Shown: positions 14,835-33,185, numbered from the stretch's first letter. The stretch: 64,000 nucleotides of DNA from Thermoguttaceae bacterium (GCA_017407125.1 JAFQXE010000025.1:92591-156590), one strand, 5' to 3'. Numbers and translations: made by a program. The notes: generated by a model from the letters alone, not told the origin.

Positions 14835-14931
14835 AACACGAAAAACGCAAAATTGACGAAAGTCACGAAAATATAAACATTTGAATTTAAAACATTTTCG
14901 TCTTTTTTGCTTATTTCGTGTATTTTGTGTT
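14835..14931. repeat. inverted pair of nonamer (nnnACGAAA) word arrays
   Basis: The left arm at 14835-14872 (aacacgaaa aacgcaaaa ttgacgaaa gtcacgaaa) is imperfectly complementary to 14894-14931. Lies downstream of the hydrolase gene. Confidence 0.5.
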
Positions 14932-14976
14932 AAAAAATCGTGTTTCCCGTGATAAAAAATCGCGCTTGCGAAATTC

Positions 14977-15693
14977 CTAATTGCCTCCGCCCGCAATTCG
15001 CTGACGGATAAATCGGTTGACTTCTTCCGGACAGAGAAGGGCAAGGACGTGTCCGGCGCCTTTGACGATTTCGTCCGGATGAGTGTATCGAACCGGCAGG
15101 AGACGGTCAGCCGACCCGTGCAGATGCCAAATCGGAAACGGGTAATCCGCCGGCTTGTCGCGCCAGGCGCAAATCATCTTTAAAACGTAGTAGCTGCGCT
15201 TTACCGGGCTGTCGATAAGCTGGTTAAGAACATTTTGAGCAAGAAAAGTAATCCGTTTCCCTCGAACCCAGATCTGGTATCGCGCCCAGAGTTTTACCAA
15301 ATCCCAGTTGCCGTTTGGCATCCAGCAGGAGAACTTCCAAATGGCTCGGGAAACCGGCGGGATTTCCGTTCCGCCGCGGATGGACGCCAGGAGAAAACAG
15401 CCGCGAACGTCGACGCCGCGTTCCACCAAATACCCTCCGATAATCGGCGAAACCATTCCGCCAAACGACAGCCCGCCAACGTAACAGGCGTTTTCCGCCG
15501 CCCCGTTTTCCGGGTCAAAATACTGTTTATAGACGTCCTCCGCCCACCTCAGAGCAAACTCTTTGAGCGTTTCCCCCTTCTGAGGCTCAATCCATTTGGG
15601 GACGACAACGTCAACGACGTCGCTCAACGCCTGCTTCTGCAAGACAAACAAATCTTCAGTACACCCCAGCCCGGGGAATAATAACAACTTCAT
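14977..15693 (-). CDS. alpha/beta-fold hydrolase
   Basis: Nucleophile elbow GLSFGG and a late HGSAD/GAGH block. Start set at ATG 15691-15693 (MKLLLFPGLG); the ORF-track TTG at 15708 is less likely. Confidence 0.75.
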   Translation of the reverse strand: MKLLLFPGLGCTEDLFVLQKQALSDVVDVVVPKWIEPQKGETLKEFALRWAEDVYKQYFDPENGAAENACYVGGLSFGGMVSPIIGGYLVERGVDVRGCFLLASIRGGTEIPPVSRAIWKFSCWMPNGNWDLVKLWARYQIWVRGKRITFLAQNVLNQLIDSPVKRSYYVLKMICAWRDKPADYPFPIWHLHGSADRLLPVRYTHPDEIVKGAGHVLALLCPEEVNRFIRQRIAGGGN

Positions 15694-15928
15694 GTGTATT
15701 AATGGCAAAAAGATTTCTTATTAAATCCCAATTATTATTCCTTATTTTAGTTATTATGATTGTTTATGTCAAGGTATAATATTTTATCAAATGCTCATTC
15801 AATATGATTGTAACCCAATGATACATTTTTTGTAACGTTATTTGGTTACGTTTTTACAGTGAAGAAATCATTTAATTTTAAAAAAAATCTTAAAAAACTG
15901 TTCCAAAATATAGCATTTAATAAAATCT

Positions 15929-15938
15929 GTGATATAAT
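15929..15938 (+). promoter_or_regulatory. extended -10 candidate (TGATATAAT) for the island operon
   Basis: tgatataat lies about 115 nt upstream of the ATG at 16051. The region is so AT-rich that false positives are likely. Confidence 0.25.
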
Positions 15939-16050
15939 ATGAATTTAACAAGTTGCATAATATATATGTTACCCCAAAAATAAAAAAACATTTTTCGTTT
16001 ATTAATAGCAAGTTACCCGAGGATTGATCTTGACGAATTAATTACACAAA

Positions 16051-17514
16051 ATGAAATTTGAAAATGTACAACCTTCCGCAGCGTCATTAATGGAGTCTAC
16101 ACGTTCTATTGGTTACTCCCTTGAGTCTGCAATCGCTGATATAATTGATAATAGCATTGCTGCAGATGCATCTAATATTCAAATTCGATTTCTACCTGAT
16201 GAGAATTCATATATTGCAATTATGGATAATGGGTGTGGCATGACCTATAACGAATTAAAGAAAGCAATGCAATATGGAAGTCGAAGCCCTTCGGAAAAAC
16301 GCGCTGACAATGATTTGGGGCGATATGGTTTGGGACTAAAAACAGCGTCGTTATCACAATGTAAAACATTGACAGTAATTTCTAAAAAGAATTATAAAGT
16401 AACTGCTTGTCGTTGGGATTTGAGTTATATACAAAAAAAAGATGAATGGTTATTACAAATATTAGAAAAAGATGAAATTAACAACCTTCCATGTTTCAGT
16501 TATTTAGAAAATCTTAAATCTGGAACAATTGTTCTCTGGCAGAATTTGGATCGTCTTCTGGCAACTGGAAATCCCCATAGGGATATTCTAGGTTCAAAGA
16601 TGATAAAAGTACGTGAACATCTGTCTCTTGTTTTTCATAGATATTTGGAAGGAGCAGATGTACCACGTAAAATCTCTATTGACATTAATAACATGGAAGT
16701 ATTGCCGAAAGATCCTTTTTTATCGAAGCGTTCTACAAAGGCAATGGCGGAGGAAGTAATTACAATTGAAGGTCAGCAAGTTGTTATACGACCATATATT
16801 TTACCGCATATTTCAAAATTGTCTAAAAGCGAACTGGAGAGTTTAGGAGGGTCGGATGGACTCCGTAAATTGCAGGGCTTTTATGTTTATCGCAATAAAC
16901 GATTAGTTGTCTGGGGAACGTGGTTTCGTATGATGGTTAAAGGCGATTTATCAAAGCTTGCTCGTATTCAGGTCGATATTCCAAATACTTTAGATGAATT
17001 ATGGACACTTGATATAAAAAAGTCTTCTGCTATTCCCCCTGAATTAGTTCAACAAAATCTAAAAACAATCATAGAAAAAATTGCAGAGAAGAGTAAAAGA
17101 ACATGGGAATTTCGTGGTAAAAAAGAACAAGATAATAAGTTTGGGATATGGGAGCGCTTACGAACGCGTGATAATGGTTATACATATCAGATAAATCTTA
17201 ATTCCCCGATAATTAAAGAACTCTTGGCTAATTTCCCTAAAGCCAAAAGATCATTAATTGCTGTTTTTTCATTAATTGGTTCGCGTCTTCCATTAAACAG
17301 CCTTTATTTGGATTTAGTACAAGAGCAAAAAATTCAAAATAATGACGAACAAGAGAATGAAACTGTATTGCAACAGATGCAAGAATTATTATCTATGTGT
17401 AAATCTATAGATGATAAACGTAAAATGTTGAAAGATTTTTTGAACCTTTCACCATTTAGTGAACATAAAGATTTCATTACCCAAAATATAGAAAGGATAT
17501 TAAAAAATGAATAA
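16051..17514 (+). CDS. MORC/MutL-like GHKL (HATPase_c_3-type) ATPase
   Basis: Bergerat-fold motifs: N box DIIDNSIAADA, G1 MDNGCGM, G2 GRYGLGLKTAS. First gene of the island operon. Confidence 0.85.
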   Translation: MKFENVQPSAASLMESTRSIGYSLESAIADIIDNSIAADASNIQIRFLPDENSYIAIMDNGCGMTYNELKKAMQYGSRSPSEKRADNDLGRYGLGLKTASLSQCKTLTVISKKNYKVTACRWDLSYIQKKDEWLLQILEKDEINNLPCFSYLENLKSGTIVLWQNLDRLLATGNPHRDILGSKMIKVREHLSLVFHRYLEGADVPRKISIDINNMEVLPKDPFLSKRSTKAMAEEVITIEGQQVVIRPYILPHISKLSKSELESLGGSDGLRKLQGFYVYRNKRLVVWGTWFRMMVKGDLSKLARIQVDIPNTLDELWTLDIKKSSAIPPELVQQNLKTIIEKIAEKSKRTWEFRGKKEQDNKFGIWERLRTRDNGYTYQINLNSPIIKELLANFPKAKRSLIAVFSLIGSRLPLNSLYLDLVQEQKIQNNDEQENETVLQQMQELLSMCKSIDDKRKMLKDFLNLSPFSEHKDFITQNIERILKNE

Positions 17515-20233
17515 CAAAGAAATGTTATTAGATTATATTAATCTTACAATTGCCAAAGATAATAAAACACAAACAGAAGAATCAATTCGTAATCTTGCTC
17601 AAAAGATTCGTAGAATAATGCAGAATGATTATCCGGTAGCCGATTCGGAGTTTGAATGGATAATAAAAAAGATTCAGTCAATGCATCCAGTTAAAATGGA
17701 TATTGGGGTGTATATAGAAGATAGACAGGATAACTATGCTCCATGGTATCATCAAAGATTGTCTGAAATTGAGCAACCTTTTTGGCAACGATATCGTCAA
17801 TATCTCATTTGCGATAAAAAATGGAGTTCACAGGTTGTCAATTCAATAGATTTGGTTTCAAAGACCATTGTTGGATTATTAGGCGATCCTAATAATCCAC
17901 GACCATTTAGTCGAAAAGGACTTGTTTTAGGAGATGTTCAATCAGGGAAGACTGCAAATTTTACAGCAATATGTAACAAAGCTGTGGATGCTGGTTACCG
18001 TATTATTATCCTTCTTTCAGGTTTAACTGAATCATTACGAAAACAGACTCAAAGTCGTATGGATTTAGAGTTTGCAGGATTTGATAGTATTAATCAATTT
18101 CATCAAAAAACTAATTGTAGTAATTCAGGGGTAAGCAAATATGGTAAAGATGTGCAAGTTGCCTCATTTACAACAACGCGTTCTGATTTTGATGCACATT
18201 CATTAGATGTGAATAATATGTCTATTAAAGCTGTCAACTCAAACGTCCCAATATTGTTTGTAATTAAAAAGAATGTTAGTATTTTAAAAAACTTGTTGAA
18301 TTGGTTGAGTAAATCTCAAGAACTTGTAAGTGATAGAGAGCATATTGATTTTCCTGTATTGCTAATTGATGATGAAGCAGATAATGCATCCATAAATGTC
18401 AATAGTGAGGATTCCGATCCAACTAAGACCAATGCAAAGATAAGAGAGCTTTTGAAACTATTTAGCCGTGTTTCATATCTGGCTGTAACAGCCACGCCAT
18501 TTGCTAACATTTTTATCAATCCTGATTCTGAGAATGAGATGTATGAAAACGATTTATTTCCAAGGGATTTTATTTATGCTCTTTCTCCGCCAACTTCGGA
18601 TCAGGATTTAAGGGATAATGCTGCTTATATAGGTGCATCCCAAATATTTGGCGATACCCATATTCCAGGAATGTTGGAAGAAATTGACGATTTGGAATTG
18701 GTATTACCCCATAAACATAAAAAAGATTTTTTATTTTCCGATTTGCCAGAATCATTAAAAGAGTCTATTGTTTATTTTTGCTTGGCTAATGCAATACGCG
18801 ATTTACGTGGAGATAAAACTAGCCATCGATCAATGTTGATTCATATTTCACATCTAACCGCGATTCATAAACAAATAGAAAAAGTAGTTAATTCATTTGT
18901 TCTTGAGATTCAAAATGCAATATTAGATTATTCAAGATTACCAGAAAATGAGGCTGTGAAGAATTCTTATATCGGCTTTATTAAGAAAGTTTGGTATAAA
19001 TATGATTTTCAACAAAAAATTGATAAAACCTGGTCTGAGATTTTGCCTATCTTGAATTCTTCAATTGCTCCAATCGAAGTTCGCGTTATTAATTCAAGAG
19101 GTGGAAATTTAGATTATACAGATAATAAAGATACTGGTCTTCGAGTTATTGCAATCGGTGGAAACTGCCTCTCTCGCGGTTTAACGCTTGAGGGTTTGAT
19201 GGTCAGCTATTTTCGAAGAAATACTCAAATGTATGACACTCTTTTACAAATGGGGCGTTGGTTTGGTTTTCGACCTGGATATGCTGATTTATGCAAAATT
19301 TGGATGCCAACAGAAATTAAAGAATGGTTTGAACAAATTACAGAAGCTTATGTTGAATTGAAAGGTGAAATATATGAAATGAGCGAATTAGGATTAACTC
19401 CTAAAGATTTTGGTTTGAAAGTTCGTAAGCATCCTGGATCTTTGTTGCCAACTGCTCGCAATAAAATGCGCTCCGGCGCTCAAATTATGAAGAGACCTAT
19501 TAATATCTCTGGTCGTCTTCTTGAAACGCCAAGATTACTTGTTGATAACATTAAGAAAAATGAAAAGACAATAAAATCGTTTGTTTGTAAACTTGATCGC
19601 ATTGGAAGACGGGATGACAGTTTTCCTTCCCCATTTTGGCATGAAGTATCATCGGAGGAAATTTCAAATCTACTAAGGAACTTTCCTACCGACCCATGGA
19701 ATTTAACGTTTCTAGGACGCGATATTGCAAAGTATATTGATGAACATCCTCAGCGATGGGATGTAGCAATTATGCAAGGTGATGGTAGCGAATATATCTT
19801 TTCAACTGAATCAGGAAGTCTTTCGATAAAGTCTGAAGTTCGAAAGGTTCAAAAAGATGATTCTCAAAAAATATATAAAATAATGGGGTCTAAAGCGCGA
19901 GTTGCTTCCGGCGGTTCTGCAAAAATCGGTTTATCAACACAACAATTAGACCTTTTAAAGAGTTCATATAATGAACTAAGAATTCGAAAACCTGAACTTG
20001 AACTTGGAAGTAATATTCCAGATGATTGGTATTTTAAAATCAATAGACCACCTCTATTAATGATTCACACAATTGAGTTTAAAGACAATCCTGGCAATTT
20101 TATTTTTGCAATTGGTACAGGATTTCCAGGGAATAAAGACAATGAAGAGTATGTAGAATATGTTGTAAATCTTGTTGAATGGAAAAAACATTATCAAGAA
20201 CAAGAAGATTATAGTGACGAAGAGGAGGAATAG
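17507..20233 (+). CDS. Z1-domain P-loop NTPase (helicase-like)
   Basis: Walker A GDVQSGKT, DEAD-like LLIDDEADNAS, and a Z1 signature block GGNCLSRGLTLEGLMVSYFRRNTQMYDTLLQMGRWFGFRPGY. The start overlaps the upstream stop by 8 nt. Confidence 0.85.
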   Translation: MNNKEMLLDYINLTIAKDNKTQTEESIRNLAQKIRRIMQNDYPVADSEFEWIIKKIQSMHPVKMDIGVYIEDRQDNYAPWYHQRLSEIEQPFWQRYRQYLICDKKWSSQVVNSIDLVSKTIVGLLGDPNNPRPFSRKGLVLGDVQSGKTANFTAICNKAVDAGYRIIILLSGLTESLRKQTQSRMDLEFAGFDSINQFHQKTNCSNSGVSKYGKDVQVASFTTTRSDFDAHSLDVNNMSIKAVNSNVPILFVIKKNVSILKNLLNWLSKSQELVSDREHIDFPVLLIDDEADNASINVNSEDSDPTKTNAKIRELLKLFSRVSYLAVTATPFANIFINPDSENEMYENDLFPRDFIYALSPPTSDQDLRDNAAYIGASQIFGDTHIPGMLEEIDDLELVLPHKHKKDFLFSDLPESLKESIVYFCLANAIRDLRGDKTSHRSMLIHISHLTAIHKQIEKVVNSFVLEIQNAILDYSRLPENEAVKNSYIGFIKKVWYKYDFQQKIDKTWSEILPILNSSIAPIEVRVINSRGGNLDYTDNKDTGLRVIAIGGNCLSRGLTLEGLMVSYFRRNTQMYDTLLQMGRWFGFRPGYADLCKIWMPTEIKEWFEQITEAYVELKGEIYEMSELGLTPKDFGLKVRKHPGSLLPTARNKMRSGAQIMKRPINISGRLLETPRLLVDNIKKNEKTIKSFVCKLDRIGRRDDSFPSPFWHEVSSEEISNLLRNFPTDPWNLTFLGRDIAKYIDEHPQRWDVAIMQGDGSEYIFSTESGSLSIKSEVRKVQKDDSQKIYKIMGSKARVASGGSAKIGLSTQQLDLLKSSYNELRIRKPELELGSNIPDDWYFKINRPPLLMIHTIEFKDNPGNFIFAIGTGFPGNKDNEEYVEYVVNLVEWKKHYQEQEDYSDEEEE

Positions 20234-20234
20234 T

Positions 20235-21167
20235 ATGTTATACAAAGATTTTTCAAACAGGTTTATGTTGTTAATGAAAGACGAGTTGTCATTTTCAATA
20301 ATTGATCCTGATCATCCATTGTATATTTATGGGGGGTATAACAATAATCGGCAGCCAACATTTATGATTCTTAATGAACAAGCTGTTGATACACGTTATA
20401 TTAAATCAACACAGGGTATAACGGTTAAGAATATACAACGAAAAGATGGCAGGTATGCTTTGCAGTTCTCATTTTCTGGAAAAGATTGCTCTCTTTTTTT
20501 AAGATTATGTTATGATTTGCTGGAATCTACAAGAAATATTTCGCCAGACGTAGCCTTTCAACGATTAATCAGTCGTTACCAAGCATGGTATAATATGCTA
20601 TCAGGAGTTCGTCCAGATATTCTATCTCCAAATCAACAAAAAGGTCTCTGTGGCGAATTGTTGTATTTGTTGGAAGAGATAGATAATATTGGCGCAGAAT
20701 TAGCGCTTGAATCTTGGAGAGGACCGCATGGTGCAGATCAGGATTTTATTAATCAGAATCACTGGACAGAAGTTAAAAGCGTTGGTCTTTCTTCGGATAA
20801 TGTTACGATATCAAGTTTAGAGCAATTGGCTCCTTTGACGTCTGGCTTTTTAGCTGTTTATAAGATTGAAGAAACAACAAATATAGATTCTGAATGTTTT
20901 TCATTATATTCGCTAGTTCAACGAGTTGAACAGAGAATTGCTCAGTCTGTAAACGCAGGTCTTTTGTTTGCTGAAAAACTGTATTTATCAAATTGCATTA
21001 TTTCAGAACCGGTTTATAAAGATACATATTTTGTTGTAAAAGATTTTGCACTATATGAAGTGCGTGATTGCTTTCCTAGACTTACCGCGGAAGTTGTTCC
21101 TTCGGGAATTACGTCGGCAAAATATTCAATTAGTTTAGCGTCTATAAACGAGTATAAAGTGGGGTAA
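20235..21167 (+). CDS. PD-(D/E)XK-motif protein (putative nuclease)
   Basis: The HGADQDFINQNHWTEVKSV stretch gives D-x11-E-V-K. The ATG at 20235 has a GGAGG RBS and sits 1 nt after the Z1 stop; the ORF-track start at 20172 lies inside the Z1 gene. Confidence 0.7.
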   Translation: MLYKDFSNRFMLLMKDELSFSIIDPDHPLYIYGGYNNNRQPTFMILNEQAVDTRYIKSTQGITVKNIQRKDGRYALQFSFSGKDCSLFLRLCYDLLESTRNISPDVAFQRLISRYQAWYNMLSGVRPDILSPNQQKGLCGELLYLLEEIDNIGAELALESWRGPHGADQDFINQNHWTEVKSVGLSSDNVTISSLEQLAPLTSGFLAVYKIEETTNIDSECFSLYSLVQRVEQRIAQSVNAGLLFAEKLYLSNCIISEPVYKDTYFVVKDFALYEVRDCFPRLTAEVVPSGITSAKYSISLASINEYKVG

Positions 21168-21169
21168 AA

Positions 21170-23269
21170 ATGGAGTTTGAAGATTTCCGTAATGAAATAA
21201 TGGAAGATGTTAAAGTTGAATCTGAAATCTATGGCGAAGGTTCTGTTGCATCATTCCTTAAAGTATTTTCTGAAAAAATGATAAGTTCAGAGATCATTCA
21301 GGACGATATTACCCTCGCTTTCTTTGAAGGCGAGGGACGAAATAAACGAAAATTGCGTGTCGATGGGTATCTCTATGATGATATTGATCATACTATGAAT
21401 CTTTATATAGTTGATTATGATGCAATATCCAGAGATTCTCCGATGGTTAGATCATTAGCAGAGAACTTTTTTAAAAAAGTTCAGTTTTTTATTGAAGAAT
21501 CTTATGAATCTAACTTAAGTAAGACCATTGAACCTAGTACGCCAGCTTCAGATTTGGTAGATAATTTAATTTCAAAAAGACAAGAGATTAGCAAATTCCG
21601 GTTTCATTTGTTGACAACAAGAGATATGGGAATCAGAACAATCTCTTGGGATGTTAAATCAATCAATAAAATTGATAATAAAACGGTTGAGTATCAGGTA
21701 TGGGATTTAAGACGTGTTTTTTTAATTTGCAATACTGATTTAGGTCGAGAAAATATAGAGATTGATTTTAAACAATATACCAGTAAAGGAATACCATGTA
21801 TTGAAGCAACTGGCATGGATGGAAATGATTTTAAAAGTTATCTTTGTATAATACCAGGTGATGTTTTAGCTCAGATTTATGATGATAAAGGAAGCGTATT
21901 GCTTGAAGGAAACGTTCGTTCATTTTTATCTACAAAAGTTGCAGTCAACAAAAAAATTCGTGAAACGATTTTACGGGATGCAAGCAAGTTTTTTGCTTAT
22001 AATAATGGAATATCTGCTACAGCAATGAATCTTAGGTTTGAAAAGAATTCATCAGGTTTGTTCATTACATACGTTGAGGATTTCCAAATAATAAATGGTG
22101 GACAAACAACAGCAACTTTATCAAGTACAAGACAAAAAGACAATGCAGATTTATCAAATGTTTTTGTTGCCATGAAACTAACAGAGATTGATTCTAATGA
22201 TGCGTCTGAATTAATAAGAAACATTTCTCGTTCATCAAATAGTCAAAATAAAGTTAGTGATGCAGATTTCTTTTCAACTCATCAATTTCATGTTCGAATG
22301 GAGAAATATTCCAGATCGACCCTTGCCCCTGCAACAGGCGGCTCGCAATATGAAACACATTGGTTCTATGAGCGTGCTCGAGGTCAATATTTTCAAGAAC
22401 AAATGCGACTTACAGCACAGGAAAAGAAAAAATTTTTGCTGAAAAATCCTAAAGAACAGCTTGTTACTAAAACAGATTTGGCAAAGTATAGAAATTCATG
22501 GGATGAATATCCACATATTGTTAGTAAAGGCGCTCAAACTAATTTTATGAAGTTTGCCGAGCAGATTAGTGCGTCATGGGACAAAAATGAAAATCTTTAT
22601 AATGACAAATATTTCAAGGATTCGATGGCGTTGGCTAAGTTGTTCAAGGAAATTGAAAAACTTGTTACAAAACAACCATGGTATCAAAATGGTTATAGAG
22701 CAAATATAGTTACATACTCAATTGCAGTTTTTCACCATTTAATAAAAATGAATATGCCAGACCATGTTTTTGATTTGTCATATATTTGGAAAAAGCAACT
22801 CGTTCCTCAAGAAGTACTTGAAGTATTTACAAAAATAACACTATTTGTTCACAACTTCATAACTACAACAGCTTCAGAAACAGCCAACGTTACTCAATGG
22901 TGCAAAAGAGATAAATGTTGGGAAAAAATGAAAGAGGCAATTCCTCAACAAAACTTTAATTGTAATAACATATTACAATTTTTGAAATCGAAGGAGGATG
23001 AAAAGGCTGAATCGCGAGAGGCTAAAAAATCCCAACATGAAGATAATGATATCAGCGCTCAGTCAATTGTCGTTAATTATGGATGTGCTTTCTGGCAGAA
23101 GTTGCAATTGTTTTGTATAGAACATGATTTGGAAAATGCTGTTTTAGAAAAAGCGTTTTATCCTGCTGTTCGAATCCCTACAAAAATTCCGTCTCCTAAA
23201 CAGTCGAAAGTTTTGTTAGAAGCATTGGAGATGGCAAAGAGCGAGGGCTTTGTTTCTGATAATAAATGA
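21170..23269 (+). CDS. AIPR (abortive-infection phage-resistance) family protein
   Basis: 699 aa. The central block FFAYNNGISATA ... IINGGQTTATL is reminiscent of the AIPR family (from memory). Starts 2 nt after the upstream stop. Confidence 0.75.
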   Translation: MEFEDFRNEIMEDVKVESEIYGEGSVASFLKVFSEKMISSEIIQDDITLAFFEGEGRNKRKLRVDGYLYDDIDHTMNLYIVDYDAISRDSPMVRSLAENFFKKVQFFIEESYESNLSKTIEPSTPASDLVDNLISKRQEISKFRFHLLTTRDMGIRTISWDVKSINKIDNKTVEYQVWDLRRVFLICNTDLGRENIEIDFKQYTSKGIPCIEATGMDGNDFKSYLCIIPGDVLAQIYDDKGSVLLEGNVRSFLSTKVAVNKKIRETILRDASKFFAYNNGISATAMNLRFEKNSSGLFITYVEDFQIINGGQTTATLSSTRQKDNADLSNVFVAMKLTEIDSNDASELIRNISRSSNSQNKVSDADFFSTHQFHVRMEKYSRSTLAPATGGSQYETHWFYERARGQYFQEQMRLTAQEKKKFLLKNPKEQLVTKTDLAKYRNSWDEYPHIVSKGAQTNFMKFAEQISASWDKNENLYNDKYFKDSMALAKLFKEIEKLVTKQPWYQNGYRANIVTYSIAVFHHLIKMNMPDHVFDLSYIWKKQLVPQEVLEVFTKITLFVHNFITTTASETANVTQWCKRDKCWEKMKEAIPQQNFNCNNILQFLKSKEDEKAESREAKKSQHEDNDISAQSIVVNYGCAFWQKLQLFCIEHDLENAVLEKAFYPAVRIPTKIPSPKQSKVLLEALEMAKSEGFVSDNK

Positions 23270-23279
23270 TTATAATATT

Positions 23280-24902
23280 ATGAAAAATAAAGACGTAACT
23301 TTTAGATTGGGCGAGTTGTTTTGCGGTCCGGGAGGATTAGCGCTAGCTGCTGCTCTTGTTGGGGAAAGAGGAGTTAAATCAGATGATAATAGATCTTTCT
23401 ATATTAATCATCTTTGGGGGGTTGATAAGGACGTTGACGCGATAGACACATACAAAAACAATATTGTAGGCAGGTTTGGTGGTGAGGCAATATGTAAAGA
23501 TGCTTTTGAGTTTGTTAATTCAATGACAGATGGTCAAAAATCAATCAACGCTTTTGCTTTTGGATTCCCATGTAACGACTTTAGTTCCGTTGGTAATCAA
23601 ACAGGTTTGGGAGGTAAATTTGGCAATCTGTATCAAGCAGGTATTTCTGTAATAAAACTAACAAATCCAGATTGGTTTGTTGCAGAAAATGTCAGCGGTA
23701 TTAATTCTGCTGATGGCGGTAATGCATTTAAACGCATACTTATAGATTTAGCGAATACTGGAAAGGGATATAACATAACTCCTCATTTATATAAATTCGA
23801 AGAATATGGCGTTCCCCAATTACGTCATCGTTTTATAATCGTTGGGATTCGCAAGGATTTAAATCGTACGTTTAAAGTTCCTGTGCCTACTACGCAAAAT
23901 CTTGAAATGCAAATTCCGGTTGAAAAAGCGCTTGAAGGAATTTCTGCGGATTGTGCCAATCACGATTTTCCTCGGATGAGTCAATCAGTTGTAAAACGTC
24001 TTCAGTTGACACCCCCGGGGAAAAATGCATGGTTTTTAGACGAGTTATTATCGATGTCTCCCGATGAACGACGTAAGATTATAGAGTCTTTGCCATGGTA
24101 TAAAGATGTTTTTAAAGACATGACTGACGATGATGTATGTAAGATGATTATGGAATCAAAGCTTAATTGCAAATGCGCCAGAATGAGCCATATATATAGA
24201 CGTCTACAAGGGGGGCTTCCCTCTTATACGATTACTGGAAGTGGAGGCGGCGGAACGCATGTGTATCATTGGTGTGAACATCGTGCTTTAACGAATCGAG
24301 AACGAGCTAGAATACAAACATTTCCAGATTGGTTTAAATTTTCTGGTTCTCTTGAAAAAGTTCGCAAACAAATAGGAATGGCAGTTCCAACGGGCGGAGC
24401 GATTATTATATTTGAATCTATACTAAAAACCTTTGCGGGTATACAATATGATTCAATTGAATCAAATGTTGATACAAGTTTTTTACAATCGTATGTTAAA
24501 ACGTCAATAAATCAGAAATCGTCTATAAGTAAGATACGAAAAGATAATATAATAGAATTAATAAATAATAATTGCAAATTCAGTTATTCTGATAAAGTTA
24601 TTTTAAAAATCAAAGGCTTCAATAACAGAAGTGGCATTATATACACAATCAAAGATATTGATTATCACATAAACTTAAAAGATATTAACCTTGTTTTAGA
24701 GCTATTCAAAAATCAACAACAGATCACAGAAGATTCCTTATCAACATTACTTCCTAACATCTTTTCAAGTAAAGTATCTTCAGTTAAGGATTATAAGGAA
24801 TTCTTTGTCATTGCATTATTTGACGAATTAGGGATAGGTAAAAAATGTCAACCGTATCCCAGAAAAAAAATATGGGCGCTAAAGCCTATTACTGAAGAAT
24901 AG
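23280..24902 (+). CDS. DNA (cytosine-5)-methyltransferase with a ~150-aa C-terminal extension
   Basis: Motif I FCGPGGLALAA, IV GFPCNDFS, VI AENVSG, VIII QLRHRF, IX RERARIQTFPDWF, X GMAVP. ATG at 23280, 10 nt after the AIPR stop. Confidence 0.9.
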   Translation: MKNKDVTFRLGELFCGPGGLALAAALVGERGVKSDDNRSFYINHLWGVDKDVDAIDTYKNNIVGRFGGEAICKDAFEFVNSMTDGQKSINAFAFGFPCNDFSSVGNQTGLGGKFGNLYQAGISVIKLTNPDWFVAENVSGINSADGGNAFKRILIDLANTGKGYNITPHLYKFEEYGVPQLRHRFIIVGIRKDLNRTFKVPVPTTQNLEMQIPVEKALEGISADCANHDFPRMSQSVVKRLQLTPPGKNAWFLDELLSMSPDERRKIIESLPWYKDVFKDMTDDDVCKMIMESKLNCKCARMSHIYRRLQGGLPSYTITGSGGGGTHVYHWCEHRALTNRERARIQTFPDWFKFSGSLEKVRKQIGMAVPTGGAIIIFESILKTFAGIQYDSIESNVDTSFLQSYVKTSINQKSSISKIRKDNIIELINNNCKFSYSDKVILKIKGFNNRSGIIYTIKDIDYHINLKDINLVLELFKNQQQITEDSLSTLLPNIFSSKVSSVKDYKEFFVIALFDELGIGKKCQPYPRKKIWALKPITEE

Positions 24903-24961
24903 CATGATATCTATATAGTAGATATAGAATTTATCTGTTCGTATGTAATTAATAGTATTTT

Positions 24962-25993
24962 CTACGCTCTCCCCCAGTCGAAGGCGAGGACGTCGCGCAA
25001 GTCGTGGGTTCCGAAAGCGAGCATGACGGCGCGGTCGAAGCCCAAGGCGCAGCCGGCGCAGGGCGGGAACCCGGCATGCAGAGCGTCGAGGAGTATCGAG
25101 TTGGGCGGCAGCGGGGCGTGTCCATCTGCGATGCGCTGACGGTTGGTGAACTCGTGACGCCGCGCCAGCTCGTCTGCGTCCGCCAGTTCGTGATACCCGT
25201 TCGCCAGTTCCACCCCGCCGACAAAAAGCTCGAATCGTTCCGCAACGGCGCCGTATGGCGCGTCAACGACTTTTGCCAAGGCCGACTGCGTCGCCGGGTA
25301 ATGGTACAGAACCGTCGGGCGCCATTGATCCGGGGCGTCGTTGTTGAATCCCAGCTTGACCTGAACTTTTTCCGACAGGATTACGTCCAGCCAGGAATCG
25401 CGGTCGTCCGGGTCGAATCCTTCAGGAACGCCGAGGTTTTCCGACTGACAATAGTTTCGAATCTGTTCCATGGACGCGGCAAACGGGTCAAGACCGGCGT
25501 ATCGGAGAAAGGCGTCTCGATAGGAAATCCGCAGCGCCTTCTGAACGGTCAGCCGCTCTTTGAGCAGCGTTTGACACAGTCCTTCCAGAACGGTCATGCC
25601 GGCGCTGAAATCGTCGTTGACGCCGTACCATTCGATAATCGTGAATTCCGGATTGTGACGCTGACCGTATTCCCCGTTTCGAAACGCGGGGCAGATTTGG
25701 TAGATCGACCCCATCCCCGCCGCCAAAAGCCGTTTCATGGCGAACTCCGGCGACGTTTGCAGGAACACCGGCGAGGCAGGGCGCGCTTCGGAAATCTCGA
25801 CGTCCGTTTTTATCGTTATCGGTTCCAGCCAGCGGTCGATGGTTGTATCGCGAGAAATGACCGGCGTCTGAACTTCCGTATAATTCAGGGAATCGAAATA
25901 GCTTCTCGCCCGCTTGAGCAGTTCAGAGCGAAGTTTTAACGCTTCGATCGAGCCGGACGGACGCCAGGAAACAGGGGTGTTCTGAGATGTCAT
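24962..25993 (-). CDS. epmA: EF-P--(R)-beta-lysine ligase (truncated LysRS paralogue, PoxA/GenX)
   Basis: Class II aaRS core without an anticodon domain: FRNGEYGQRHNPEFTIIEWY, ELANGYHEL, GCALGFDRAVMLAFG. Start at ATG 25991-25993. Confidence 0.85.
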   Translation of the reverse strand: MTSQNTPVSWRPSGSIEALKLRSELLKRARSYFDSLNYTEVQTPVISRDTTIDRWLEPITIKTDVEISEARPASPVFLQTSPEFAMKRLLAAGMGSIYQICPAFRNGEYGQRHNPEFTIIEWYGVNDDFSAGMTVLEGLCQTLLKERLTVQKALRISYRDAFLRYAGLDPFAASMEQIRNYCQSENLGVPEGFDPDDRDSWLDVILSEKVQVKLGFNNDAPDQWRPTVLYHYPATQSALAKVVDAPYGAVAERFELFVGGVELANGYHELADADELARRHEFTNRQRIADGHAPLPPNSILLDALHAGFPPCAGCALGFDRAVMLAFGTHDLRDVLAFDWGRA

Positions 25994-26047: not shown

Positions 26048-29000
26048 CTATTTCCACGGCCACAAGTCGGTTACTCGCTGCAAGAACGTTTTCTTTTCCG
26101 GTTCTTTTTTGGGTTCTGGAGCTGGCGATTCTGGCGTCGGCGCGGACTGGCTGGGCGTCGGCACGGCGACGTTCGGATTCTTCCCAAATCCAAACAGGGG
26201 TTTCTTTTGGTTCGTTCCGCTGACCTGGGTGGGTTGAGCGGAGGACGGAGTTTGAGTAACAGGCTGATTCGGCGCGTCGCTGAAAGGTTTTACAGACTGC
26301 CCAATTGCCCCGCTGTACGGAGCGACGGCGGCTAACGGCGCGCTGGGCGCGGTTCTCAGTTCGACGCAGTCCAGGAGGAATTGCGACCAGTAACCTTGTT
26401 GATAGCGCCAGCAGTATTCCAGGTCTCCCTGGGAGAATTTGGCTTTAAGCGGGAGCAGGGTTTTGGATAGTTCCCGCTGTTCGTACTCTGAAAAATACAG
26501 GTCGGAAATGTTAATGTTGTCAATCCACGCTTCGCCCCGTTGAGGAAGTTCAAATCCGATGCACAGATTATCCATGTTTTCCAACGGCAAATCGTTGATG
26601 TGGAAGAAATGCTGACGCCATTCGCCTTGCTGACTGACAACCAAGTCTTCGGGTTCTCGATAAAGGAGCATTTCCCGATAGACGTTTTTGTTACCGCATT
26701 TGGCGCGAACAAAGCATCGCAGAGGCACGTTGGGGTCTTTTTTAATCCACATGCTGATGGTGAATCGACCTGTGGCGTCGGCAACGATTTCTTTGCTGTA
26801 AACCGCAGTCGGCCAGCCGTCGCAGACGAGGTGTAAAGAACTCCGTCCGTTGATTGCACAGCGGTTGTCTATCGAAGCGCCTGACGCCGAATCTTCAGGC
26901 TGATTCGGATTCTTCCAAACGAACCATTTGGGAATAGGCTGTGAGTCGTCGGCGGGCTGTTCGAAGTCCGGGTTGTCGAGGCTTCTCATCGTCCTTGCCG
27001 TTTTGAGGGATTCCGCCCGATTGACCAGATCGACGAGGCTGGTTTTCATCTGGTCAATTGTCTGCGGGCTCCACGAGACAGTTGGATGGCTTAACTGCAC
27101 CGATGCGTTGAATCGAACGACCTGAATTTCAAACGGCGCGAAATAGCTGCGCCAAACCAGCTGATTGTTTTCATAAACCAGTTCCGGAACGTTGTCGATA
27201 AAGGCAGAGCCCTTGTTGTTGAGTTCGGAAAAGCGATATAAAACGTTGTCCAGCGATGGCGGAGCGGCGCCGTTTATCGAGGCCGGGTTGAGTTTGATTT
27301 TTCCTGCAATACGAAACGGCGTTGTGTTCACAGCGTAAGCCCACGTTGACTGCCCGTCGGAAATCCAGCGGCAGACGATCGCTTTGCTTTGATTCTGGGT
27401 GGCGGGTATTACCCGCCCCAAATTGCTTTCATCATTATTTGTCGCGGACAATGTCCGCTCCCCGGAAACTGCCTCGTTGTACTGACGGTTCGCCAGGCAT
27501 CGAAACGCCGCCATCGTATTGACGACAGCCTCTTCTTCCCCGAGAGCTAACGTCCAGCCGCCGTCGAAAAATTCCTGCGTGTCCCACAGGGCAAGACTCT
27601 GGATAAATCGTTTGCGGTTTTCAATTCCCGCCGGAGTGGGAATGCTGTTGAGAAGAGCGTATGTGGGTTTATACGGAGATTTCTTTTCGAAATCCGTCAG
27701 TCGAATTCGATGGCTGGGATGATAAAACAGGCTGGCTTGAATTCGCTGTCCGTTATGAGAGCTGAAAAAGGCGTCCACGTCCGGCATGACGTTCCATTGG
27801 CGTTCCGCCGCGGATTGCCGAAGCGTTTGTCCATTGATAACGCGCTGCGTGTACGTCAGTACAATATTCTGTTTTGAGCCAAAACCGAAGTCTGCGCTCA
27901 GACCGCATTGGAGCATTGCGTATTGAACGCCTGTCGTTTGAGGAATTTTTGGCAGCAAAGCGTTTCTGTGACAGCGAGTAAACAGTTTCGCGCCGGAAAG
28001 GTACAGCTTTCGATTGGTTCCATCGGCTTGAAGTCGATCTCGAAGCTTGCAGTAAAATTCAGACAGTTTGTCGCTTCTCCACTTTAACCAATGCGCCTGC
28101 GCCGGACCGTTGAGAAAACGCGCTCGAGCCTGGAATCGCTCTGCGCCTTCGCCAGGAACGTTAACGCCGGTGTCTGCGGTAAAGCGCCGGATCGTTTCGT
28201 CGTCCATTCCCCACTGCGGCGGCGGAAGAACCAGCCAGGAATTGTCCGTTAATTGCAGTCCCAGTCCGGTAAAAGACGGATGCTCTTTGTAACGGGACGT
28301 CAAATGCGAAACCGTATCCAGAACGAATTGCTGCACTTCCGGATGTAAAATATTGTAGTACATCGCCGCGCCGTTTTCTGGCGGGTAAGCTAACAAAATC
28401 GTTTTGCCGTCCGGACCGATCCATTGCAGACCGGACGTCTGCGGGTCGCGAGATCTAACCTTGGATTCCAAAGCAGGAACCGGCTGAGCTATTTCCATGG
28501 CGGGAATGAACCGCATTTGCTGTCGGTCGAATATTCTCATCAGAACTTCCAGCGCGTCTTTTCGAACCGGATCGGAACAGCTTTGAGAGAACGCGCCGGT
28601 GTCGTATCGCGGCGTTGGCGCCAATTCCGGGCAAGGCCAGATGGCGCTGCCGTCGCTGTTGACGGAAATCATGGCGCCGTTGTATCCGACGAAATTGAGG
28701 TATTCCACCATGCGAGTTGAACCCTCGTAGAACGTTTCCCAGTTGTCCAAAGCCATGGTCGCGTTTTCTGACGCCGTCTTTTTTGCCGAGAACATGGCGG
28801 GAAACTGCGGTCTGTCCATGTACGCCGCCAGCAGTCGCGGAGACGTTCCGGAATACGTTTTGGGAAGTTTTCCAATAACTGACATGACTCGAATCTTGCC
28901 GTATCGGGAAACGACGTCCTCTCGAAGGTTGTAAATTACCACAACAGGCGACTTCGTTCGAGGCCAAAACACGATTTTATGAGTTTTCCAGGTTGGCTTG

Positions 29001-31294: not shown

Positions 31295-31477
31295 TGCTTT
31301 TTATCTCGATATATGTAATAATAGAAGCGTTTAACGCCCAATGGTTAGTTTTGATTTATCGCCATCGGCGGTGAATAGTCGTGAGAATTGAAAGCTTCTC
31401 ACCTTTTAACATATAATTAACCATGTTGATACTTTAACGATTTTTCCCCAATTAGACAAGAGCAATTTTCAATTATT

Positions 31478-32074
31478 ATGAAAGTAATCGGAATCGTCGG
31501 CGGTATCGCGTCCGGAAAGTCATTTTATACAGATATTTTTGAGTCTGAAGGCGCGGTTACGTTTAAGGCGGACGAAGTCGCTCACGACGTCCTCAACGAG
31601 CGGACAATCAAAGAGAAAATCCGTCAGCGTTGGGGAGAGGAGATTATTAACGACAACGGAACAGTCAATCGACCGAAGTTGGCGCAAATCGTCTTTCAGG
31701 GAACGGAAGACTCCGACATGGAGCGTCTGTATTTGGAATCGTTGATTTTCCCACCGCTGAAAAAGCGTTTTGAACGTTTTCTGGACGAATGCGAGTCCAA
31801 CGACGTGTACTATATTATTCTTGATGCTGCGTTGCTTCTTGAAGCAAGCTGGGACAAGATGTGCGACGCGATTGTCTTTATTGACACGCCGGAAGAGGTT
31901 CGTCTGGAACGGGCGAAAACGACTCGCGGCTGGACGGAAGCCGAGTTCCGTGCGCGCGAAGCGTCGCAGTTTTCGATCAAAAAGAAAAAGAAACGCTGTC
32001 AGTTCACTCTCGACGGGTTAGCTAAAAAAGAGGACGCCGTCCAGGCGGTTGAAGAGCTGTTAAAGCGTATTTAA
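31478..32074 (+). CDS. coaE: dephospho-CoA kinase
   Basis: MKVIGIVGGIASGKS P-loop at the extreme N-terminus; family-typical length of 198 aa. Confidence 0.9.
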   Translation: MKVIGIVGGIASGKSFYTDIFESEGAVTFKADEVAHDVLNERTIKEKIRQRWGEEIINDNGTVNRPKLAQIVFQGTEDSDMERLYLESLIFPPLKKRFERFLDECESNDVYYIILDAALLLEASWDKMCDAIVFIDTPEEVRLERAKTTRGWTEAEFRAREASQFSIKKKKKRCQFTLDGLAKKEDAVQAVEELLKRI

Positions 32075-33145: not shown

Positions 33146-33185
33146 TTTAGGGAATAGGGAGTAGTAATTGGCGCAAAGCGCGAAA

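What the first reader, a model, noticed from the sequence alone, without database searches (positions are those of the whole stretch)
15709..24961. AT-rich 9.2-kb island with a five-gene GHKL ATPase / Z1 / PD-(D/E)XK / AIPR / C5-methyltransferase operon (Mza-like methylation-linked defence cassette)
Seen: composition drops abruptly (hand counts of single 60-nt lines give 27-45% GC inside, 55-70% in the flanking hydrolase and epmA genes). Five same-strand ORFs are separated by -8, +1, +2 and +10 nt, so they form one coupled operon, preceded by 342 nt of extremely AT-rich non-coding DNA. Motifs are listed in the feature entries. Established: MORC/MutL-like GHKL ATPases, Z1 and AIPR domains recur next to methyltransferases in restriction-modification-like defence islands (comparative-genomics work by Iyer/Aravind and Makarova/Koonin). 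To my recollection this gene set matches the cassette named mzaABCDE in the 2020 Gao et al. defence screen. Inference: a horizontally acquired anti-phage system. Several things are not established. It is unclear what the two ATPases sense, which protein cleaves, whether AIPR is an abortive effector, and how methylation licenses self DNA. Finding it in a Planctomycetota-like host with very different base composition is notable. I saw no integrase, transposase, tRNA or obvious direct repeats at the borders.
Basis: partly seen in the sequence, partly recalled or inferred. Interest (0 to 1): 0.85.

Follow-up and report, generated by a model that had tools for sequence, protein, structure and literature searches.

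The report
Mza-like methyltransferase-linked restriction cassette island
A 9.2-kb AT-rich island in a gut Planctomycete genome carries an intact five-gene anti-phage-type cassette (two ATPases, a nuclease, an AIPR protein, a DNA cytosine methyltransferase); the same cassette is common across bacteria and has been described before, so this copy is real but ordinary.

Summary
Window 15709-24961 is 33.6% GC against 48.4% elsewhere. It holds five coupled same-strand genes: a GHKL/MORC-type ATPase, a DEAD-Z1 helicase-like ATPase, a DUF4420 PD-(D/E)XK nuclease, an AIPR protein and a C5 DNA methyltransferase. All catalytic motifs are intact. The host is a Thermoguttaceae (Planctomycetota) MAG.

The cassette is only "Mza-like". 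PADLOC MzaB-E models hit, but NCBIfam equivalog cut-offs are missed by two- to five-fold. MzaA, which the literature describes as sigma-factor-like, is absent. Canonical mzaABCDE has no methyltransferase.

The exact B-C-D-E-MTase order recurs in all 14 complete loci examined: Salmonella, Clostridia, metagenomes and IMG/VR viral contigs. The methyltransferase co-diverges with the other genes. This architecture was described as an R-M-type operon in 2008 and as a putative defence system in 2022.

The closest biochemically characterised relatives are CglI/NgoAVII/BceSIV, which combine a C5 methyltransferase, a nuclease and a DEAD-Z1 translocase.

Best reading: an ATP-dependent, methylation-protected restriction system acquired horizontally. 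It is a new member of a known kind, of modest interest. The roles of AIPR and GHKL, and of an orphan ~140-aa methyltransferase tail, remain unknown.

The parts
15709..24961 (.). The whole AT-rich island, inserted between the 5' end of an alpha/beta-hydrolase gene and the 3' end of epmA.
   Evidence: GC is 33.6% against 48.4% elsewhere. GC3 is 0.23-0.26 against a host value of 0.555 +/- 0.07. The same junctions occur in more than 20 independent contigs.
15709..16050 (+). Non-coding leader, 22.5% GC, with no ORF longer than 47 aa. It probably holds the operon promoter. It contains an extended -10-like TGATATAAT at 15930-15938. It also contains a near-consensus sigma-70-like site on the minus strand (15772-15744) that faces the hydrolase gene.
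   Evidence: The number of promoter-like sites does not exceed the shuffle expectation, so promoter assignment is inference only.
16051..17514 (+). Gene B: GHKL (MORC/paraMORC, MutL-like) ATPase, 487 aa. ATP-binding motifs are DIIDNS (aa 30-35), DNGCGM (59-64) and GRYGLGLKTAS (90-100).
   Evidence: PF13589 at 3e-38. PADLOC MzaB at 1.7e-85. NCBIfam MzaB scores 327 bits against a cut-off of 850. The motifs are invariant in 6 homologous cassettes.
17507..20233 (+). Gene C: DEAD-Z1 SF2 helicase-like ATPase, 908 aa. Motifs are Walker A GDVQSGKT (aa 142-149), DDEAD (288-292), TATP (328-331) and motif VI DTLLQMGRWFG (577-587) with QxxR spacing. The N-terminal ~130 aa and C-terminal ~260 aa have no family hit.
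   Evidence: PF10593 at 8e-79. PADLOC MzaC at 1e-110. NCBIfam scores 457 bits against a cut-off of 1500. Motifs are shown. The DThhQXuRhFG motif is from Iyer 2008. The unusual QxxR motif VI of DEAD-Z1 motors is from Toliusis 2018. The terminal regions have no Pfam hit and no PDB sequence hit.
20235..21167 (+). Gene D: DUF4420 PD-(D/E)XK nuclease, 310 aa. The catalytic signature is E141 (KGLCGELL), D168 (GADQDF) and E179-V-K181.
   Evidence: PF14390 at 2e-51. PADLOC MzaD at 2e-17. The signature is invariant in 6 cassettes. The E. coli MzaD homologue cuts DNA in vitro (preprint 10.1101/2022.06.16.496414).
21170..23269 (+). Gene E: AIPR-family protein, 699 aa (AIPR_N aa 29-184; AIPR aa 245-567). 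Invariant motifs are RVDGY, LEGNVRSF, AYNNG-SATA, INGGQTT, SSNSQNKV, WFYERA-GQ, GYRANI and QWCKR. Its biochemical activity is unknown.
   Evidence: PF22879 at 1e-30 and PF10592 at 4e-100. PADLOC MzaE at 2e-68 and AbiU at 6e-23. Conservation in 50 homologues is shown. The AF2 model has pLDDT 76 and no significant PDB fold match. There is no PDB sequence match.
23280..24902 (+). Gene M: C5 DNA cytosine methyltransferase, 540 aa. The core (aa 1-~395) carries motif I FCGPGG (14-19), motif IV FPCNDFS (96-102), ENV (136-138), QLRHR (180-184) and GMAVP (366-370). A ~140-aa C-terminal extension (aa ~400-540, nt ~24480-24899) has no family assignment.
   Evidence: PF00145 at 1e-56. PADLOC MTase_II at 8.5e-93. 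PDB hits include M.HaeIII and M.HhaI. The AF2 model has pLDDT 86.5, and the tail (aa 420-535) is confidently folded. The tail is conserved only in cassette-linked MTases of this clade; many ~395-aa homologues of 55-62% identity lack it. The tail has no Pfam or PADLOC hit and only 4 hits among 1.84 billion representatives.
24903..24961 (.). A 59-nt AT-rich spacer between the convergent 3' ends of gene M and epmA. It holds a weak AT-rich hairpin, ATATCTA-TATAG-TAGATAT (24907-24925).
   Evidence: Read directly from the sequence. The scan found no canonical terminator here.
14977..15708 (-). Left border gene, not part of the island: an alpha/beta-hydrolase-like protein transcribed away from the island.
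   Evidence: PF12697 gives a weak hit. A relative with an 85% identical gene (L118) has a Gp49/HigB-HTH toxin-antitoxin pair and a host repeat element upstream instead of the island.
24962..25993 (-). Right border gene, not part of the island: EpmA-like class II aminoacyl-tRNA-synthetase paralogue, convergent with gene M.
   Evidence: PF00152 at 5e-44. The best relatives are all Planctomycetota at 44-51% identity.

Best explanation
This is a horizontally acquired, five-component, ATP-dependent restriction-modification-type defence cassette. It is the methyltransferase-containing sister of the Mza system.

Shown by the analysis:
- It is one coupled operon.
- It encodes a C5 methyltransferase, a DEAD-Z1 SF2 motor, a GHKL/MORC-type ATPase, a PD-(D/E)XK nuclease and an AIPR protein.
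- All catalytic motifs are intact.
- The gene order is strictly conserved across distant hosts.
- The methyltransferase co-diverges with the other four genes.

Inferred mechanism:
- The methyltransferase marks a short host sequence with 5mC.
- On unmethylated incoming DNA, the DEAD-Z1 protein hydrolyses ATP and translocates along dsDNA, as its homologue H.CglI does.
- The GHKL ATPase clamps or loops DNA, or remodels the complex.
- The DUF4420 nuclease cuts.
- AIPR is an accessory DNA-sensing or regulatory subunit of unknown activity.
- The clade-specific C-terminal tail of the methyltransferase probably docks it to the complex or to DNA.
For: - Domains and motifs.
- Translational coupling: gaps of -8, +1, +2 and +10 nt.
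- Conserved architecture: all 14 complete loci examined have the order B-C-D-E-M. These are the window, Acetoanaerobium L001, Subdoligranulum L004, Salmonella L101/L102, L103, phage-like L104-106 and IMG/VR L110-114. They fall into two clades, and each clade has its own methyltransferase type, so the methyltransferase co-evolves with the restriction genes. A more distant cassette has the order M-B-C-D.
- Characterised relatives: CglI/NgoAVII/BceSIV consist of a C5 methyltransferase, a nuclease and a DEAD-Z1 ATPase. That ATPase is a dsDNA translocase whose ATP hydrolysis is triggered by unmethylated sites and is required for cleavage (PMC4267653, PMC5861437). Gene C carries the family-specific DThhQXuRhFG / QxxR motif VI.
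- Validated homologues: the canonical Mza B-E homologues protect E. coli from phage without growth arrest, and purified MzaD cuts DNA.
- Active methylation in a related operon: a methyltransferase in an AIPR+Z1 operon of Prevotella intermedia methylates GCWGC in vivo (PMC5608340).
- Foreign origin: GC and GC3 differ sharply from the host. The nearest homologues are 44-61% identical and come from low-GC Firmicutes, metagenomes and other hosts in which the cassette is again AT-rich relative to its flanks. A relative carries a toxin-antitoxin pair at the same spot.
Against: - No experiment exists for any methyltransferase-containing five-gene cassette of this type.
- Canonical Mza works without a methyltransferase, so the B-E module does not intrinsically need methylation to tell self from non-self.
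- It is unknown which protein reads the target sequence. CglI uses a B3-domain R-subunit that is absent here.
- AIPR has no assignable fold or activity. It has been proposed to be a suicide effector.
- No Vsr repair gene accompanies the C5 methyltransferase.
- Expression and activity in the Planctomycete host are untested. Population copies are at least 99.8% identical, so selection cannot be measured.
Confidence: 0.68

Rival explanations
1. Two-tier or abortive-infection system. The methyltransferase, nuclease and ATPase part senses foreign DNA, but the protective output is AIPR-mediated killing or dormancy of the infected cell. This follows the 'immunity coupled to suicide' hypothesis.
For: AIPR is homologous to the lactococcal abortive-infection protein AbiU (PADLOC AbiU at 6e-23). 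AIPR is recurrently linked to R-M operons and has been proposed to be a toxin (PMC3506569; PMC2292703). It is the best conserved protein of the cassette, with mean column identity of 71% in 50 homologues.
Against: E. coli mzaABCDE showed no growth arrest at high MOI. The proposed N-terminal HEPN RNase is not evident here. The AIPR_N model is alpha/beta, and there is no invariant Rx4-6H motif. No toxin fold was detected.
Confidence: 0.15
2. Methylation-independent Mza-type defence with a passenger methyltransferase. B-E act like canonical Mza and recognise some phage feature. The methyltransferase serves another role, such as epigenetic regulation, protection of the mobile element against other R-M systems, or addiction.
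For: Canonical Mza has no methyltransferase. The P. intermedia methyltransferase was classed as an 'orphan'. Close (55-62% identical) methyltransferase cores occur in other contexts, for example with Vsr.
Against: Linkage is strict and the methyltransferase co-diverges with B-E in 14 of 14 complete loci. Two different methyltransferase architectures each stay with their own clade. A cassette-specific C-terminal tail is present. The characterised DEAD-Z1 systems are true R-M systems.
Confidence: 0.12
3. A silent or decaying passenger. The island is a recently acquired selfish R-M-like element that is not expressed, or not functional, in the Planctomycete host.
For: Codon composition is strongly foreign (GC3 0.25 against 0.555). 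No recognisable host-type promoter stands above chance. Population contigs are near-identical, so there is no evidence of purifying selection in this lineage. One variant has an indel at the start of gene B.
Against: All five ORFs are full length with every catalytic motif intact. The island is present in every contig that carries the identical EpmA, across several samples.
Confidence: 0.05

Closest known systems
MORC/paraMORC - SFII(Z1) helicase - RE-fold nuclease - DCM - AIPR operons (Iyer, Abhiman & Aravind 2008, PMC2292703); 'Type II' putative defence system of Miller et al. 2022 (PMC9523054)
   Same: The gene set is the same: a Z1 protein of ~900-925 aa with the DThhQXuRhFG motif, a DUF4420 PD-(D/E)XK protein with an E-D-ExK signature, a cytosine methyltransferase, an AIPR protein and a MORC-type GHKL ATPase. 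Both sources also report ~20% identity to MzaB-E and a wide, patchy distribution.
   Different: Nothing essential differs. The 'putative transcriptional regulator' often associated with Type II is absent here. The host phylum, Planctomycetota, and the clade-specific methyltransferase tail are particulars of this copy. The class itself has no experimental validation.
mzaABCDE (Gao et al. 2020; Salmonella enterica / E. coli)
   Same: MzaB (GHKL), MzaC (Z1), MzaD (DUF4420) and MzaE (AIPR) homologues occur in the same order. PADLOC E-values run from 2e-17 to 1e-110.
   Different: There is no MzaA, which is described as sigma-factor-like. A C5 methyltransferase is present here that canonical mza lacks. 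Scores are 2- to 5-fold below the NCBIfam equivalog cut-offs.
CglI / NgoAVII / BceSIV ATP-dependent Type II R-M systems (PMC4267653, PMC5737866, PMC5861437)
   Same: Both have a C5 methyltransferase, a separate nuclease and a DEAD-Z1 helicase-like ATPase with the unusual QxxR motif VI. In those systems ATP-driven dsDNA translocation licenses cleavage of unmethylated DNA. tblastn of gene C finds a ~25% identical ORF in N. gonorrhoeae.
   Different: Their nuclease is a PLD-family enzyme with a B3 DNA-reading domain. Here it is a PD-(D/E)XK DUF4420 protein with no recognisable reader domain. They have three genes, with no GHKL ATPase and no AIPR.
AbiU1 / AIPR abortive-infection proteins
   Same: Gene E carries the AIPR_N and AIPR domains and hits the PADLOC AbiU model.
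   Different: AbiU acts as a stand-alone Abi gene. Here AIPR is one subunit of a five-gene operon.

Membership tests
mzaABCDE (Gao 2020) | MzaB GHKL/MutL-like ATPase orthologue | tested here: inconclusive
   The PADLOC MzaB model hits at 1.7e-85 over the full length. NCBIfam equivalog NF041932 scores 327 bits against a cut-off of 850. The protein is a homologue, not an equivalog.
mzaABCDE (Gao 2020) | MzaC Z1-domain ATPase orthologue | tested here: inconclusive
   PADLOC MzaC hits at 1e-110. NCBIfam NF041933 scores 457 bits against a cut-off of 1500.
mzaABCDE (Gao 2020) | MzaD DUF4420 PD-(D/E)XK protein orthologue | tested here: inconclusive
   PADLOC MzaD hits at 2.3e-17. NCBIfam NF041934 scores 89 bits against a cut-off of 420.
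mzaABCDE (Gao 2020) | MzaE AIPR protein orthologue | tested here: inconclusive
   PADLOC MzaE hits at 2.3e-68. NCBIfam NF041935 scores 300 bits against a cut-off of 1050.
mzaABCDE (Gao 2020) | MzaA (sigma-factor-like first gene) | tested here: not met
   No MzaA hit appears for genes B-E, for the methyltransferase tail, or among the 25 best PADLOC hits of the methyltransferase. NCBIfam gave no MzaA-named hit either. The leader has no ORF longer than 47 aa. MzaA is described as a sigma factor, with a PF04546 hit.
mzaABCDE (Gao 2020) | No methyltransferase in the operon (MutL+Z1+DUF+AIPR) | tested here: not met
   A 540-aa C5 methyltransferase is the fifth, coupled gene. The canonical composition is given.
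mzaABCDE (Gao 2020) | Anti-phage activity | not testable with these tools
   This needs heterologous expression and phage challenge.
MORC/paraMORC-Z1-RE-DCM-AIPR operons (Iyer 2008) = 'Type II' system of Miller 2022 | Large Z1-domain SFII protein with the DThhQXuRhFG motif | tested here: met
   The protein is 908 aa, PF10593 hits at 8e-79, and DTLLQMGRWFG lies at aa 577-587.
MORC/paraMORC-Z1-RE-DCM-AIPR operons (Iyer 2008) = 'Type II' system of Miller 2022 | RE-fold / DUF4420 protein with an E-D-ExK signature | tested here: met
   PF14390 hits at 2e-51, and E141, D168 and E179-x-K181 are invariant.
MORC/paraMORC-Z1-RE-DCM-AIPR operons (Iyer 2008) = 'Type II' system of Miller 2022 | Cytosine-C5 methyltransferase in the operon | tested here: met
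   PF00145 hits at 1e-56 with all catalytic motifs present. The gene is coupled, with a 10-nt gap.
MORC/paraMORC-Z1-RE-DCM-AIPR operons (Iyer 2008) = 'Type II' system of Miller 2022 | AIPR protein and MORC-type GHKL ATPase | tested here: met
   PF10592 hits at 4e-100 and PF13589 at 3e-38, with an intact N-box and G1/G2 boxes.
MORC/paraMORC-Z1-RE-DCM-AIPR operons (Iyer 2008) = 'Type II' system of Miller 2022 | Associated transcriptional regulator (frequent, not universal) | tested here: not met
   The leader contains no HTH ORF. Relatives L104-106 do have an HTH_17 gene upstream.
CglI/NgoAVII/BceSIV ATP-dependent R-M | DEAD-Z1 H/N-subunit | tested here: met
   The Z1 domain, Walker A, DDEAD, TATP and QxxR motif VI are all present.
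CglI/NgoAVII/BceSIV ATP-dependent R-M | PLD-family nuclease with a B3-like DNA-recognition domain (R-subunit) | tested here: not met
   None of the five proteins has a PLD or B3 hit. The nuclease is a PD-(D/E)XK DUF4420 protein.
CglI/NgoAVII/BceSIV ATP-dependent R-M | Type II-like C5 methyltransferase protecting the target site | tested here: inconclusive
   The methyltransferase is present and intact. Its target site and protective role cannot be tested here.

The most novel reading that the evidence does not exclude
The cassette may not be a plain R-M system but an integrated dual-ATPase machine. In this reading the methyltransferase is physically recruited through its orphan, clade-specific ~140-aa C-terminal domain. 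Methylation (self-marking) and restriction would then be governed by the same GHKL/DEAD-Z1 complex. AIPR would act as a second-line (suicide or DNA-sensing) effector, giving a direct physical coupling of immunity and abortive infection.
Probability: 0.2. Interest if true: 0.6.

Novelty: new member of a known kind. Interest (0 to 1): 0.3.

Why it matters
The finding adds a Planctomycetota (Thermoguttaceae, ruminant-gut MAG) host to a very widespread but biochemically unsolved family. The family combines a GHKL ATPase, a DEAD-Z1 ATPase, a nuclease, AIPR and a methyltransferase.

The family is worth studying. No structure of a full Z1 motor or of any AIPR protein is in the PDB. The role of MORC-type ATPases in bacterial immunity bears on the origin of eukaryotic MORCs.

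This particular copy does not open a new question. Its practical value is as a compact, intact, AT-rich representative of one of two clades. That clade has a distinctive methyltransferase tail that could be used to test how the methyltransferase is coupled to the restriction complex.

Tried and rejected
- Empty-site search. All contigs with the identical EpmA or flanking proteins carry the island. GTDB relatives of EpmA are at most 51% identical and show no synteny, so they are uninformative. An exact 47-mer from the epmA 3' end found nothing in JGI metagenomes. Only one short contig (L118) was informative, and it showed a different occupant rather than an empty site.
- Border repeats, integrase and tRNA. 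None were found.
- Promoters and terminators. Site counts are not above the shuffle expectation.
- Canonical MzaA and the canonical mza locus. No such locus was found in PLSDB by tblastn. The Gao 2020 paper is not held in the library, so the composition of mza was taken from three citing sources.
- AIPR fold. The AF2 model gave no significant Foldseek PDB hit; the best, at E 0.77, were scattered PD-(D/E)XK nucleases such as Can2, an McrBC chain and Shedu. hhalign of AIPR against DUF4420 was negative. Relaxed Pfam scans of AIPR segments gave nothing, so a DUF262/DndB link was not recovered. The published 'N-terminal HEPN' idea is not borne out by conserved residues or by the model.
- Methyltransferase C-terminal tail. 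It has no Pfam or PADLOC hit. It has only 4 weak hits among 1.84 billion representatives. The fold search was dominated by the methyltransferase core.
- MANTIS/Gao_RL. This dual-ATPase methylation system was considered and rejected as unrelated, because it uses an adenine methyltransferase and an AAA+ ATPase.
- Selection analysis. Population copies are at least 99.8% identical, so no such analysis was possible.

Full report
**Observation**

The island exists as described. In 500-nt windows GC falls from about 0.51-0.56 to 0.28-0.38 at ~15700 and returns to 0.51-0.62 at ~24900. Over 15709-24961 GC is 33.6%, against 48.4% for the rest of the window, and the 342-nt leader is 22.5% GC. Third-position GC of the five genes is 0.23-0.26. 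For 26 host ORFs in the window it is 0.555 +/- 0.07 with a minimum of 0.45, so the island genes lie more than four standard deviations below the host.

The five + strand ORFs are 16051-17514, 17507-20233, 20235-21167, 21170-23269 and 23280-24902. Their gaps are -8, +1, +2 and +10 nt. The ATG at 23280 is the methyltransferase start that agrees with the N-termini of 49 homologues.

The only tRNA in the window is tRNA-Asn at 33431. No credible terminal repeats were found. No mobility genes lie nearby.

The island is not an assembly chimera. More than 20 contigs from several independent ENA metagenome assemblies carry it with the same junctions at 99.8% identity or better. One is a 438-kb scaffold that is 100% identical to the window over the 21 kb of it that was fetched.

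**What the genes are**

- HATPase_c_3 (GHKL), 3e-38
- Z1, 8e-79
- DUF4420 PD-(D/E)XK, 2e-51
- AIPR_N plus AIPR, 1e-30 and 4e-100
- C5 DNA_methylase, 1e-56

I aligned each protein with homologues from five other cassettes, and with 50-sequence sets for AIPR and the methyltransferase. All catalytic signatures are intact and invariant:
- GHKL ATPase: N-box DIIDNS, G1 DNGCGM and G2 GRYGLGLKTAS.
- Z1 protein: Walker A GDVQSGKT, DDEAD, TATP and motif VI DTLLQMGRWFG.
- Nuclease: E141, D168 and E179-V-K181.
- Methyltransferase: motifs I (FCGPGG), IV (FPCNDFS), VI (ENV), VIII (QLRHR) and X (GMAVP).

The Z1 motif VI matches two published descriptions. It fits the DThhQXuRhFG motif that Iyer et al. defined for this helicase family. 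It also has the unusual QxxR spacing that Toliusis et al. showed to be functional in the DEAD-Z1 motor of CglI.

**Host and origin**

The window's own Z1 protein and methyltransferase are deposited as proteins of a 'Thermoguttaceae bacterium' MAG. The best relatives of the flanking EpmA are all Planctomycetota, at 44-51% identity. Other window genes carry the BBP7 and YTV domains, which I know as Planctomycete-typical.

The nearest cassette homologues are 52-62% identical and come from uncultured sources. Below them lies a very large group at ~45% identity in Bacillus, Paenibacillus, Clostridia and Salmonella. In Salmonella (36% against 52% GC), L103 (31% against 49%) and L104 (39% against 48%) the cassette is again much more AT-rich than its flanks. 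This is typical of a mobile cassette that keeps its own composition.

I could not find an empty site. Every contig with the identical EpmA has the island, and distant relatives have no synteny. One metagenomic contig from a relative was informative (L118; hydrolase gene 85% identical at the DNA level). Immediately upstream of its hydrolase gene it carries a Gp49/HigB-like toxin, an HTH_3 antitoxin and a host-type AATTAGC repeat element, not the island leader. The position upstream of the hydrolase is therefore a variable spot that holds different mobile cargo in related organisms. This supports horizontal acquisition, although the contig is too short to show what lies beyond the toxin-antitoxin pair.

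**Is it Mza?**

PADLOC models MzaB, MzaC, MzaD and MzaE hit genes B-E over nearly their full lengths, with E-values of 1.7e-85, 1e-110, 2.3e-17 and 2.3e-68. The NCBIfam equivalog models are missed by a wide margin: 327/850, 457/1500, 89/420 and 300/1050 bits.

No MzaA is present. Three independent sources show that canonical mzaABCDE is MutL+Z1+DUF+AIPR preceded by a sigma-factor-like MzaA, without a methyltransferase. This is a sister architecture in which a C5 methyltransferase is the fifth gene.

That architecture is already in the literature:
- Iyer, Abhiman and Aravind (2008) described MORC/paraMORC GHKL ATPases with SFII-Z1 helicases, an E-D-ExK RE-fold protein, DCM methylases and AIPR, and called them laterally mobile R-M systems.
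- Miller et al. (2022) re-found it as a 'putative defence system'. Its Type II form is Z1 + DUF4420 + cytosine methyltransferase + AIPR + MORC, with ~20% identity to MzaB-E and with MzaA mostly absent.
- A Prevotella intermedia operon with AIPR and Z1 proteins contains a methyltransferase that is active on GCWGC in vivo.

**How conserved is the architecture?**

I examined 14 complete loci:
- the window
- Acetoanaerobium noterae (L001)
- Subdoligranulum (L004)
- a Salmonella enterica AlpA-type island (L101/L102)
- L103
- three phage-like metagenomic contigs (L104-106)
- five IMG/VR viral contigs (L110-114)

Every one has the order B-C-D-E-M. They form two clades.

In clade 1 (window, L103, L104-106) the five proteins are 42-62% identical to the window's. 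The methyltransferase is a ~395-aa core plus a conserved ~140-aa C-terminal tail.

In clade 2 the B, C and E proteins are 44-51% identical to the window's and D is 33-34%. The methyltransferase there is a different type, only ~24% identical to the window's and with an internal insertion.

The methyltransferase therefore co-diverges with the restriction genes and is an integral component.

Many ~395-aa methyltransferases are 55-62% identical to the window's core, including the target-recognition region, but lack the tail. One of them sits upstream of a more distant GHKL-Z1-DUF4420 cassette, and another sits next to a Vsr gene.

The tail is confidently folded in the AlphaFold model (pLDDT 82-94 over aa 420-535), with a small sheet followed by helices and a beta-hairpin. 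It has no Pfam or PADLOC match. It has only four weak hits among 1.84 billion representative proteins. It is the one feature of this copy that is not yet described.

**Mechanism**

The closest biochemically characterised systems are CglI, NgoAVII and BceSIV. Each has a C5 methyltransferase, a nuclease subunit and a DEAD-Z1 ATPase. ATP hydrolysis by that ATPase is triggered on DNA with unmethylated sites, drives dsDNA translocation at ~1 ATP per bp, and is required for cleavage.

For the Mza side, an E. coli mzaABCDE protects against T4 variants without growth arrest. Purified MzaD cuts DNA, and nuclease-motif mutants are impaired.

On this basis I propose the following mechanism, as inference. 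Gene M methylates a short host motif. On unmethylated DNA the DEAD-Z1 motor translocates. The GHKL ATPase loops or clamps DNA, or remodels the complex, as Iyer et al. proposed by analogy with MutL and topoisomerases. The DUF4420 nuclease cuts.

Several points remain unknown:
- Which subunit reads the sequence. The B3 reader domain of CglI is absent here.
- What AIPR does.
- Why two ATPases are needed.

For AIPR, there is no PDB sequence match. The model (pLDDT 76) gives no significant fold match. There is no relation to DUF4420. The published suggestion of an N-terminal HEPN RNase is not supported by the conserved residues or the predicted alpha/beta fold. From memory, the invariant INGGQTT strand-helix motif resembles the DGQQR motif of DndB/DUF262 proteins. 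Makarova et al. do link AIPR to the DndB N-terminus. I could not confirm this link, so it remains a lead only.

**Rivals**

- An abortive-infection output through AIPR (0.15). The main evidence against it is the lack of growth arrest in E. coli Mza.
- A methylation-independent Mza-type mechanism with a passenger methyltransferase (0.12). Canonical Mza lacks a methyltransferase, which favours this. The strict co-divergence and the cassette-specific tail argue against it.
- A silent passenger (0.05). The foreign codon usage favours this. The five intact genes argue against it.

**Verdict**

The cassette is a new member of a known, very widespread kind: about 8,000 protein clusters of Z1 relatives (E <= 1e-20) and about 8,000 of AIPR relatives (E <= 1e-10) among the candidates scored.

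A specialist would not be surprised by it. The Planctomycete host and the orphan methyltransferase tail are modest additions. Interest is about 0.3.

Noticed in passing
L118:1-510 (JAEEGH010236336.1), corresponding to window ~15694 onward: A related organism has a hydrolase gene 85% identical at the DNA level. Directly upstream of it are a Gp49/HigB-like toxin, an HTH_3 antitoxin and an AATTAGC repeat element, where the window has the island. The site looks like a hotspot for mobile cargo.
   Followed up: partly
window 7274-7355, 6076-6093 (weaker match at 31449-31478): This is an intergenic element made of inverted arrays of the heptamer AATTAGC/AATTGCT. It gives 7 matches in the window against 0.14 expected. 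The same element sits upstream of the hydrolase gene in the relative L118. It may be a host REP-like or terminator-like repeat.
   Followed up: partly
window 15744-15772 (minus strand): The best sigma-70-like match in the 9.9-kb scan (TTGACA-17-TAAAAT, 11 of 12) lies inside the island's AT-rich leader but points away from the cassette, towards the hydrolase gene. The insertion may have supplied a new promoter for its neighbour.
   Followed up: no
window 16053-16065: Some population contigs (L005, L013, L018) differ from the window by a small indel right after the ATG of gene B. Gene callers then start B at Met14, giving 474 aa. Homologues conserve the longer N-terminus, although one (L104) also starts at the equivalent Met.
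   Followed up: partly
window 33150-36000 (tRNA-Asn at 33431-33504): One otherwise 99.98%-identical contig (L012) drops to 93.8% identity with 22 gaps from ~33312 onward, next to the only tRNA gene in the window. This is a strain-variable segment that starts at a tRNA.
   Followed up: no
L006/L017 (ERZ27256811 k141_1831181), left of window ~12476: This contig matches the window up to ~12476. It then continues into Firmicute-like genes (Spore_II_R, acyl carrier protein, UPRTase) instead of the BBP7 gene. It is probably a metagenome assembly chimera.
   Followed up: no
L103:7150-7310 (leader of the closest related cassette): Four tandem copies of a ~37-nt unit lie upstream of the GHKL gene. Each contains the palindrome TCTGTCT(C/T)CTAAAAAGAGACAGA. 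The window's leader has no counterpart. It could be an operator array or a REP-like insert.
   Followed up: no
window 7820-7895 and 14916-14962: Two short tandem repeats were found. One is an 18-nt unit in 4.2 copies inside the ORF at 7365-8384. The other is a 22-nt unit in 2.1 copies in the AT-rich intergenic region just downstream of the hydrolase gene.
   Followed up: no
window 26048-30556 (minus strand): This is a 1502-aa protein with only a weak central GHL10 glycosyl-hydrolase-like hit. Most of the protein is unassigned.
   Followed up: no
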